Assembly: GCF_000026545.1 (NCBI RefSeq)
Contig: NC_011601.1
Strand: one strand, 5' to 3'
DNA: 64,000 bases
Source of the DNA: Escherichia coli O127:H6 str. E2348/69
GTDB taxonomy: Bacteria; Pseudomonadota; Gammaproteobacteria; Enterobacterales; Enterobacteriaceae
Shown here: positions 39,854 through 40,027 of the stretch, piece by piece
Layout: each line of letters starts with the position of its first letter
Numbering within the stretch: the first letter of the stretch is position 1
Program-made: the position numbers and the translations under genes
Notes under the pieces: model-generated
What the model saw: the letters and a program-made list of their open reading frames with translations, nothing else
Database searches by the model: none
Told to the model about the DNA's origin: nothing

Positions 39854-40027
39854 ATGACGACACTTATTTATTTGCAAATTCCTGTCCCTGAACCGATTCC
39901 TGGCGATCCTGTTCCAGTACCTGATCCGATCCCTCGCCCGCAACCCATGCCTGACCCACCACCCGATGAAGAACCGATTAAATTGTCGCATCGTGAGCGT
40001 AGATCTGCGAGGATACGCGCCTGCTGA
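39854..40027 (+). CDS. Small proline-rich hypothetical protein (57 aa)
   Basis: ATG preceded by GGAGGG SD; Pro-rich sequence (PVPEPIPGDPVPVPDPIPRPQPMPDPPPDEEP); below the ORF-track size cut-off. Confidence 0.4.
   Translation: MTTLIYLQIPVPEPIPGDPVPVPDPIPRPQPMPDPPPDEEPIKLSHRERRSARIRAC

What the first reader, a model, noticed from the sequence alone, without database searches (positions are those of the whole stretch)
39854..40027. Unlisted small proline-rich ORF with a strong Shine-Dalgarno between fnrS and dbpA
A 57-codon ORF begins 6 bp after GGAGGG and encodes a Pro-rich peptide with repeated PxP units, then ends basic (HRERRSARIRAC). It lies downstream of the FNR-activated fnrS, falls below the ORF-track size cut-off, and is overlapped by two minus-strand ORFs in the track that look spurious. 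A poly-proline peptide like this would probably stall ribosomes and depend on EF-P, and could act as a translation-dependent leader for dbpA.
Basis: seen in the sequence. Interest (0 to 1): 0.45.

Follow-up and report, generated by a model that had tools for sequence, protein, structure and literature searches.

The report
Known small protein gene ynaL
The small proline-rich reading frame between fnrS and dbpA is real, but it is the already catalogued E. coli gene ynaL (formerly mistaken for the small RNA C0343), whose translation has been shown experimentally and whose function is still unknown.

Summary
The ORF is at 39854-40027 (+) as described: 57 codons, ATG start, GGAGGG Shine-Dalgarno, 16 prolines, basic tail. 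It is not unlisted. It is ynaL (b4743 in K-12), annotated in 5392 of 5426 complete E. coli genomes, and it matches Pfam PF23677 over its full length (E=2e-40). It was first called the sRNA C0343 and was then shown to encode a 57-aa protein (RNAcode 2011). Translation is supported by ribosome profiling (RCV 2.49 in EHEC; tetracycline Ribo-seq) and by a chromosomal SPA-tag immunoblot. My comparison of 34 loci in about 12 genera of Enterobacteriaceae shows an intact frame, a conserved SD and ATG, and fixed zntB-fnrS-ynaL-dbpA-ttcA order. The Pro-rich core is under frame-specific purifying selection (dN/dS 0.09). The mechanistic idea (EF-P-dependent stalling, leader for dbpA) remains untested. For it: the DPPPD motif, a weak GUG/poor-SD dbpA start 27-29 nt downstream, and C-rich mRNA. 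Against it: PPP is replaced by PSP or PPQ in several lineages, and six distant dbpA loci have no such upstream ORF. One new observation: two nucleotide-invariant blocks in the last 17 codons, where synonymous change is about six-fold suppressed. These are unexplained.

The parts
39854..40027 (+). ynaL coding sequence (57 aa proline-rich small protein YnaL; b4743 in K-12; formerly sRNA candidate C0343)
   Evidence: ORF; annotated ynaL in 5392 of 5426 E. coli genomes; Pfam PF23677 E=2.1e-40 over 1-57; identical 57-aa sequence detected by SPA-tag immunoblot
39844..39849 (+). Shine-Dalgarno GGAGGG of ynaL, 4 nt before the ATG
   Evidence: Sequence; GGAGG or a close variant is conserved before the ATG in 30 of 30 loci; anti-SD duplex -10.6 kcal/mol
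39890..39973 (+). Pro-rich core (about residues 13-40, EPIPGDPVPVPDPIPRPQPMPDPPPDEE) under protein-level purifying selection; also the C-rich, G-poor part of the mRNA
   Evidence: Amino acids near-invariant with third-position entropy of 1-1.9 bits; dN/dS 0.09 at dS 1.58; alternative frames give pN/pS above 1; C/G up to 2.8, 99.7th percentile of the window
39956..39964 (+). PPP codons (residues 35-37) within DPPPD, the candidate EF-P-dependent pause site
   Evidence: P35 and P37 invariant in the 31-protein alignment, P36 nearly so. In the 30-locus set the middle Pro is Ser in 4 loci and the third Pro is Gln in 1. Motif behaviour
39971..39991 (+). Nucleotide-invariant block A, GAACCGATTAAA[T/A]TGTCGCAT (codons E-P-I-K-L/M-S-H); function unexplained
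   Evidence: Third positions invariant in 30 of 30 sequences and largely in 4 further genera; single copy in E. coli
40003..40024 (+). Nucleotide-invariant block B, (A)GATCTGCGAGGATACGCGCC (codons R-S-A-R-I-R-A, using the rare codons AGA, AGG and ATA); function unexplained
   Evidence: pS 0.11 over the last 17 codons against 0.63-0.70 in zntB and dbpA; no significant fold or conserved pairing
40028..40056 (+). 29-nt ynaL-dbpA spacer with no terminator; contains the weak dbpA SD region (conserved CGAGA) and a small stem that pairs with the GUG start
   Evidence: Gap of 27-29 nt in 28 of 30 loci (23 nt in two Citrobacter loci) and 14-30 nt in four further genera; no terminator-like site; anti-SD -3.3 kcal/mol; 5-bp stem
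40057..41430 (+). dbpA (ATP-dependent RNA helicase DbpA), GTG start; always the gene immediately downstream of ynaL
39675..39797 (+). fnrS sRNA and its intrinsic terminator, immediately upstream of ynaL
   Evidence: Rfam RF01796, 134.8 bits; terminator 39769-39788 plus T-run; present in 30 of 30 loci

Best explanation
The ORF is ynaL, a genuine, translated and already annotated small-protein gene of Enterobacteriaceae. It sits between the fnrS terminator and dbpA and is most likely the first cistron of a ynaL-dbpA transcript. Shown: the peptide is made in E. coli. The frame, the strong SD and the ATG are kept in every relative examined. Residues of about 13-57 are under protein-level purifying selection, so the amino-acid sequence itself matters. 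Inferred (my preferred reading, about even odds): YnaL acts as a free, unfolded, polyproline-type small protein with an acidic middle and a basic tail that binds a partner, plausibly connected with DbpA or the large ribosomal subunit. Also inferred: ribosomes finishing ynaL 27-29 nt (14 nt in Klebsiella and Raoultella) before the weak GUG start of dbpA help dbpA to be translated (translational coupling). The DPPPD motif probably makes ynaL somewhat sensitive to EF-P, but that sensitivity is not the conserved core of its function.
For: Identity: annotated ynaL in 5392 of 5426 E. coli genomes, in E2348/69 and in K-12 as b4743; Pfam PF23677 E=2.1e-40. Translation: SPA-tag immunoblot of the identical 57-aa sequence and a positive in tetracycline Ribo-seq; RCV 2.49 in EHEC RIBOseq and RNAcode's 57-aa coding call for C0343. 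Selection: 162 homologues, all PF23677, in Enterobacteriaceae genera; 18 invariant columns; ORF intact in 34 of 34 loci; core dN/dS 0.09 with dS 1.58, comparable to the flanking genes, and alternative frames above 1; indels are in frame (33-nt deletion in E. coli E69; 10-residue duplication in a Salmonella protein). Operon and coupling: zntB-fnrS-ynaL-dbpA order in all loci; no terminator between ynaL and dbpA; near-constant 27-29 nt gap; dbpA has a GUG start and anti-SD pairing of only -3.3 against -10.6 kcal/mol for ynaL; VanOrsdel et al. also suggest an operon. Unfolded nature: AlphaFold2 gives no secondary structure, pTM 0.23; no PDB relative.
Against: No experiment assigns any function to YnaL. 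Co-transcription with dbpA is inferred from layout only, because I have no transcript-end data, and the promoter is not identified (no sigma-70 consensus). A C-terminal SPA tag can stabilise a peptide that would otherwise be short-lived, so accumulation does not prove a trans-acting role. The pattern of a variable N-terminus and a conserved C-terminal ~40 residues also fits a nascent-chain (cis) function. Synonymous-site invariance in the last 17 codons means part of the apparent protein conservation there may be nucleotide-level.
Confidence: 0.85

Rival explanations
1. One reading: ynaL is mainly a cis-acting, translation-dependent leader for dbpA. Ribosomes pause at DPPPD when EF-P (or prolyl-tRNA) is limiting. 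The pause either uncouples transcription from translation, so that Rho loads on the C-rich ynaL RNA and terminates before dbpA, or it changes how many ribosomes reach the dbpA start. The released peptide itself would have no role.
For: DPPPD combines PPP (at least a 4-fold drop in delta-efp reporters) and PPD (found only among pausing motifs). A polyproline stall followed by Rho-dependent loss of downstream expression has been demonstrated with reporter constructs. EF-P-sensitive proline leader ORFs exist in the Salmonella mgt leader. The ynaL core is C-rich and G-poor (C/G up to 2.8, 99.7th percentile, and 1.9-3.1 in ten other genera). dbpA has a weak SD and a GUG start close behind ynaL. The variable N-terminus with a conserved C-terminal ~40 residues resembles regulatory nascent peptides.
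Against: PPP is not universal: DPSPD in E. albertii and three Citrobacter, DPPQE in C. amalonaticus. Selection covers about 40 residues, including 20 after the PPP, far more than a proline sensor needs. Most PPX motifs cause no EF-P dependence in vivo. The C-richness follows automatically from CCN codons. No RNA switch was found: fold z=0.28 and no covariation. The tagged full-length protein accumulates. dbpA in six more distant bacteria has no Pro-rich upstream ORF. No ynaL entry appears in the held EF-P/EfpL profiling tables.
Confidence: 0.22
2. The locus is a non-coding RNA (the old C0343 annotation) or a structured 5' leader of dbpA, and the ORF is incidental.
For: C0343 was originally listed as an sRNA. 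Two blocks in the 3' part are invariant at the nucleotide level, including synonymous sites, so some RNA- or DNA-level element does overlap the ORF.
Against: Synonymous sites in the core are saturated while the amino acids are fixed. Ribosome coverage and protein detection are published. C0343 was removed from Rfam and no Rfam family matches even at E<=10. There is no significant structure and reviewers note no structured-RNA features.
Confidence: 0.03
3. The ORF is a chance open frame in a C-rich intergenic region (not a real feature).
For: It is short and compositionally biased, and the same region also carries long antisense open frames.
Against: Intact in 34 of 34 loci, with a conserved SD and ATG. 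Frame-specific dN/dS is 0.09 against above 1 in the other frames. The antisense frames are not conserved. Experimental translation evidence exists.
Confidence: 0.01

Closest known systems
YnaL (b4743; Pfam PF23677 'Protein YnaL-like'; RefSeq 'proline-rich small protein YnaL'; formerly sRNA candidate C0343)
   Same: Identical 57-aa sequence to the published K-12 protein; same position between fnrS and dbpA; full-length Pfam match. This is the same gene.
   Different: Nothing in the protein. The window is strain E2348/69 (100% DNA identity) rather than K-12.
mgtP / mgtL proline-codon leader ORFs of the Salmonella mgtCBR and mgtA leaders (EF-P-sensitive leaders)
   Same: A short upstream ORF with consecutive Pro codons lies ahead of a downstream gene; EF-P level changes expression of the downstream gene (abstracts).
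   Different: Those leaders act through alternative RNA hairpins, and the peptides are short and not strongly conserved as proteins. For ynaL, no alternative structure was found, about 40 residues are under selection, PPP is lost in some lineages, and nothing has been tested.
TonB proline-rich spacer (Pfam PF16031 TonB_N; NCBIfam NF008084)
   Same: Alternating X-Pro repeats that form an extended polyproline-type rod; weak profile hits (E=0.00029 for NF008084, 20.8 bits; E=0.68 for PF16031).
   Different: Scores are far below the family cut-offs (315 and 33 bits). YnaL has no membrane anchor and no C-terminal TonB domain. The similarity is compositional, not homology.
Regulatory nascent (arrest) peptides such as SecM or TnaC
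   Same: A small upstream ORF with a variable N-terminus and a conserved C-terminal stretch about as long as the ribosomal exit tunnel, ahead of a gene related to the sensed process. This comparison rests on my own knowledge.
   Different: No arrest has been shown. The conserved tail is followed by 4-5 extra residues in Klebsiella and Raoultella, so the stop position is not fixed. No RNA switch was detected. The resemblance is a lead only.

Membership tests
YnaL family (Pfam PF23677) | Full-length match to the family profile above the gathering score (27 bits) | tested here: met
   136.9 bits, E=2.1e-40, residues 1-57 on profile positions 1-57
YnaL family (Pfam PF23677) | Same sequence and locus as the reference E. 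coli K-12 gene b4743 | tested here: met
   57-aa sequence identical to the one printed by VanOrsdel et al.; K-12 annotation places ynaL at 1409308-1409481 between fnrS and dbpA; annotated ynaL under the match in 5392 genomes
YnaL family (Pfam PF23677) | The product is actually translated | not testable with these tools
   From the literature only: SPA-tag immunoblot and tetracycline Ribo-seq; RCV 2.49. Supported here indirectly by the coding-type substitution pattern
EF-P-sensitive proline leader ORFs (mgtP/mgtL type) | Consecutive Pro codons conserved in the leader ORF | tested here: inconclusive
   PPP is present in the window and in most relatives, but is PSP in 4 and PPQ in 1 of the 30 loci
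EF-P-sensitive proline leader ORFs (mgtP/mgtL type) | Alternative RNA structures (or a terminator) whose choice depends on where the ribosome sits in the leader | tested here: not met
   MFE no better than shuffles (z=0.28); the consensus fold has negligible covariation (-0.33); no terminator between ynaL and dbpA. A Rho-dependent variant cannot be excluded (C-rich RNA)
EF-P-sensitive proline leader ORFs (mgtP/mgtL type) | Downstream gene expression changes with EF-P or with leader translation | not testable with these tools
   No data found
Base-pairing sRNA (old C0343 annotation) | Non-coding: no conserved reading frame and no ribosome occupancy | tested here: not met
   Frame-specific purifying selection; ribosome coverage reported; the family was withdrawn from Rfam and there is no Rfam match
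TonB (NF008084 / PF16031) | Score above the curated cut-off; membrane anchor and C-terminal domain | tested here: not met
   20.8 bits against a cut-off of 315; 11 bits against 33; a 57-aa protein without those parts

The most novel reading that the evidence does not exclude
ynaL is a dual-layer control element for dbpA. In this reading the conserved nascent or free YnaL peptide (polyproline core plus RSARIRA tail) and the two nucleotide-invariant blocks at its 3' end (39971-39991 and 40003-40024) together set how much DbpA is made. DbpA is a helicase that works on the peptidyl-transferase-centre region of 23S rRNA. Control would respond to how well ribosomes make Pro-Pro bonds (EF-P, prolyl-tRNA or PTC status), through coupling or Rho polarity. 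The invariant blocks would be the binding site of an as yet unknown RNA- or DNA-binding factor.
Probability: 0.15. Interest if true: 0.6.

Novelty: already known. Interest (0 to 1): 0.12.

Why it matters
As a discovery it does not matter: the gene has been in the literature since 2011 and in the K-12 annotation as b4743. What remains open is its function. YnaL is one of the better conserved uncharacterised small proteins of Enterobacteriaceae and is always placed directly in front of dbpA, a helicase involved in large ribosomal subunit assembly. The comparative results here show which parts are selected as protein and which as nucleotides, that PPP is dispensable in some lineages, and that dbpA has a weak start. 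They give a concrete basis for designing experiments that separate a trans-acting protein from a cis-acting leader.

Tried and rejected
- **Sigma-70 promoter:** a scan of 39550-40150 found none at the tool's threshold. By eye there is a conserved TTGCCT-N16-TACCCT (39795-39822), but it has only 7 of 12 matches, so I do not claim it.
- **RNA structure of 39960-40090:** the MFE is no better than shuffles (z=0.28), and RNAalifold on 15 genera gives negligible covariation. A hand-built hairpin with the invariant blocks as stems and the variable 9 nt as loop is broken in Raoultella and Kosakonia, so I rejected it.
- **Pairing of the invariant blocks** with FnrS, the ynaL TIR, the dbpA TIR or the dbpA coding region: nothing significant. 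The one z=-2.3 hit relies on GCCTGC, which Enterobacter replaces with GCCATC, so I rejected it.
- **Dispersed motif:** the blocks are single-copy in E. coli and in the window.
- **Permissive Rfam scan:** only a chance miRNA hit at E=3.
- **PDB sequence search:** no hit.
- **AlphaFold2:** no fold to search with, so I ran no fold search.
- **Pro-rich upstream ORFs before distant dbpA orthologues:** none in six loci.
- **EF-P profiling data for ynaL:** absent from the held supplement tables of the EfpL paper.
- **RNAcode paper:** could not be read, so its content is cited only through two papers that describe it.
- **Considered from memory, not tested:** I considered several ideas from memory. 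They were a 23S rRNA hairpin-92 mimic for DbpA autoregulation, a CsrA-type GGA hairpin in block B, an 'IRA' resemblance to the SecM arrest motif, and a link between the AGA/AGG codons and the neighbouring tRNA-modification gene ttcA. None could be tested adequately here and none is claimed.

Full report
**1. The observation**

It runs from 39854 to 40027 on the + strand, with an ATG start and a TGA stop, and encodes 57 aa: MTTLIYLQIPVPEPIPGDPVPVPDPIPRPQPMPDPPPDEEPIKLSHRERRSARIRAC. Sixteen of the 57 residues are proline, mostly in PxP units with one PPP. GGAGGG lies at 39844-39849, so it is 4 nt from the ATG rather than 6, which is a trivial miscount.

Upstream is fnrS (Rfam RF01796, 39675-39792, 134.8 bits) with its intrinsic terminator at 39769-39788. 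Downstream, dbpA starts with GTG at 40057. The two overlapping minus-strand ORFs exist.

**2. What it is**

The window is E. coli and is 100% identical to strain E2348/69 over this stretch. The ORF is not unrecognised:
- It is annotated as ynaL ('proline-rich small protein YnaL' or 'protein YnaL') under the match in 5392 of 5426 complete E. coli genomes.
- In K-12 MG1655 it is b4743 at 1409308-1409481.
- It matches Pfam PF23677 'Protein YnaL-like' over its full length (136.9 bits, E=2.1e-40).

The literature trail is as follows.
- The locus was first listed as the sRNA candidate C0343.
- Washietl et al. 2011 (RNAcode) showed that it encodes a 57-aa protein, and the family was removed from Rfam. 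I have this from Neuhaus et al. 2017 (PMC5331693) and from a 2014 review (PMC4152356). I could not read the RNAcode paper itself.
- Neuhaus et al. measured a ribosome coverage value of 2.49 for it in EHEC.
- VanOrsdel et al. [quoted passage not shown] They suggested an operon with dbpA.
- I found no paper that assigns a function.

**3. Comparative evidence gathered here**

*Distribution.* A protein search found 162 homologues. All 120 that were listed carry PF23677, and those with a source name come from Escherichia, Citrobacter, Salmonella, Enterobacter, Leclercia, Lelliottia, Kosakonia, Klebsiella, Raoultella and other Enterobacteriaceae.

*Protein conservation.* In an alignment of 31 proteins, the first ~13 residues are variable and the remaining ~40 are nearly invariant, with 18 invariant columns.

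*Loci.* I retrieved 29 genomic loci from the species-representative genome collection and four more from Klebsiella, Raoultella, Kosakonia and Leclercia.
- Gene order is zntB-fnrS-ynaL-dbpA in the 30 sequences checked for all four genes, and the gene calls at the four further loci show zntB-ynaL-dbpA-ttcA.
- The ORF is intact, with an ATG start preceded by GGAGG or a close variant.
- The gap to the dbpA GTG is 27-29 nt in 28 of 30 loci, and 14 nt in Klebsiella and Raoultella, where the ORF runs on for 4-5 codons.
- Length changes are in frame: a 33-nt deletion in E. coli E69 and a 10-residue duplication in one Salmonella protein.

*Two regimes of substitution*:

| Region | Result |
|---|---|
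| Pro-rich core | pN 0.13, pS 0.66, dN/dS 0.09, dS 1.58 |
| First 199 codons of dbpA | dN/dS 0.035, dS 1.37 |
| Last 150 codons of zntB | dN/dS 0.028, dS 1.97 |
| ynaL alignment codons 25-64, annotated frame | pN/pS 0.25 |
| Same stretch, the two alternative sense frames | pN/pS 1.7 and 2.3 |
| Last 17 codons of ynaL | pS 0.11 (against 0.63-0.70 in the neighbouring genes) |

- The core therefore carries the signature of a protein-coding sequence under purifying selection, and the signal is frame-specific.
- The low pS in the last 17 codons comes from two blocks that are invariant at every position, including third positions. These are GAACCGATTAAA[T/A]TGTCGCAT (39971-39991) and GATCTGCGAGGATACGCGCC (about 40003-40024), although the second uses the rare codons AGA, AGG and ATA.
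- The blocks are separated by nine freely varying nucleotides. They persist in Klebsiella and Raoultella even though the stop codon has moved.
- The longest run of invariant third positions is 6 (permutation p=0.005).

*Antisense frames.* The antisense open frames vary from 29 to 100 aa between genera and are Arg- or Gly/Ser-rich shadows of the CCN-rich sense strand.

**4.

*EF-P.* DPPPD contains PPP and PPD. In Elgamal et al. 2014, all PPP motifs gave at least a 4-fold drop in a delta-efp reporter and PPD was found only among pausing motifs. The same paper stresses that most PPX proteins are unaffected in vivo and that context decides. So EF-P sensitivity is plausible but not assured.

It is also not universally conserved. 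The middle proline is serine in E. albertii and three Citrobacter loci, and C. amalonaticus has DPPQE. I found no EF-P profiling entry for ynaL.

*Leader for dbpA: points in favour*
- There is no terminator between the genes.
- The spacing is nearly constant.
- dbpA has a GUG start and very weak anti-SD pairing (-3.3 kcal/mol against -10.6 for ynaL).
- A 5-bp stem can pair the GUG with upstream bases.
- The ynaL core is C-rich and G-poor (C/G up to 2.8, 99.7th percentile of the window). That is the composition on which Rho loads when translation is uncoupled, a route demonstrated for polyproline stalls with artificial constructs.

*Leader for dbpA: points against*
- The C-richness follows automatically from Pro codons.
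- No alternative RNA structure is detectable (z=0.28 and no covariation).
- Selection acts on about 40 residues, including 20 after the PPP.
- The tagged protein accumulates.
- In six loci whose DbpA is 48-60% identical to the E. coli protein, the neighbourhood is different and there is no Pro-rich upstream ORF. So ynaL is a lineage-specific addition, not a general part of dbpA control.

**5. Best explanation and rivals**

I put 0.85 on the composite statement: ynaL is a real, translated, known small-protein gene that is selected as a protein and sits in an operon-like arrangement with dbpA. Within that, the claims that YnaL acts in trans and that its translation feeds the weak dbpA start are inferences at roughly even odds.

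AlphaFold2 predicts an extended chain with no secondary structure (pTM 0.23), and there is no PDB relative. This fits a polyproline-type binding peptide but does not identify a partner.

The rivals are:
- the pure cis-acting EF-P leader model, 0.22;
- an ncRNA-only reading, 0.03;
- a chance ORF, 0.01.

**6. Comparison with what is known, and novelty**

This is the same gene as YnaL/C0343, so the finding is already known. The proposed mechanism would resemble the EF-P-sensitive proline leaders of the Salmonella mgt operons. However, one defining feature of those, a ribosome-position-dependent RNA switch, was tested here and not found, and the functional feature cannot be tested with these tools. 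The weak TonB hits are compositional.

The only element I have not seen described is the pair of nucleotide-invariant blocks in the last 17 codons. I could not explain them as a promoter, an RNA structure, a pairing site or a repeated motif.

**7. Verdict**

Interest is low (0.12) because the gene is catalogued. The residual value lies in the unexplained invariant blocks and in a clean experimental design for telling a trans-acting protein from a cis-acting leader.

Noticed in passing
window 39971-39991 and 40003-40024: Two blocks inside the last 17 codons of ynaL are invariant at every nucleotide, including third codon positions, in 30 sequences from about 8 genera. They are nearly so in 4 further genera, despite the rare codons AGA, AGG and ATA. 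They are separated by exactly 9 freely varying nt. Synonymous divergence is 0.11 here against 0.63-0.70 in zntB and dbpA. Block B can form a small GCG/CGC hairpin with AGGAUA in the loop and contains a conserved GATC.
   Followed up: partly
window 39795-39822: TTGCCT (the tail of the fnrS terminator T-run) followed 16 nt later by TACCCT is conserved across genera, just upstream of the ynaL SD. By eye it is a possible weak promoter for ynaL-dbpA, but it is below the scan's threshold (7 of 12 matches).
   Followed up: no
window 40042-40059: A 5-bp stem (CACGA ... UUGUG) pairs the dbpA GUG start codon with bases just upstream. It is kept in 15 genera, with only one-sided changes (A-U to G-U). It is weak, but together with the poor SD it suggests that dbpA initiation is intrinsically inefficient.
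   Followed up: partly
L009 2501-2638 (E. coli E69) and protein P0053 (Salmonella enterica): Length variants of ynaL are in frame. There is a 33-nt deletion between the repeated PVP..DPIP units (46-aa product) in one E. coli, and a 10-residue duplication (PDPRPHPQPM) in a Salmonella protein. This looks like slippage between the PxP repeats, tolerated only when the frame is kept.
   Followed up: partly
window 38535-38582 (+): A 15-codon ORF ([15 protein letters not shown]) 13 nt upstream of zntB is annotated in RefSeq as gene 'ydaN', product 'protein YnaN'. It is another tiny annotated upstream ORF in the same neighbourhood.
   Followed up: no
window about 37197-38341 (-): dgcM (GGDEF-domain protein) is annotated as a frameshifted pseudogene in strain E2348/69, the strain that matches the window.
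   Followed up: no
L031 (Klebsiella) 2501-2695 and L032 (Raoultella) 2501-2686: In Klebsiella and Raoultella the usual ynaL stop is mutated (TGCAGA, TGCCAA) and the ORF runs on for 4-5 codons, ending 14 nt before the dbpA GTG. A terminating ribosome would then sit on the dbpA initiation region.
   Followed up: partly
summary (E. coli genome collection): Six of the 5392 matches to the fnrS-ynaL-dbpA stretch lie on records labelled as plasmids, and 34 complete genomes have no match at all. I examined neither group.
   Followed up: no
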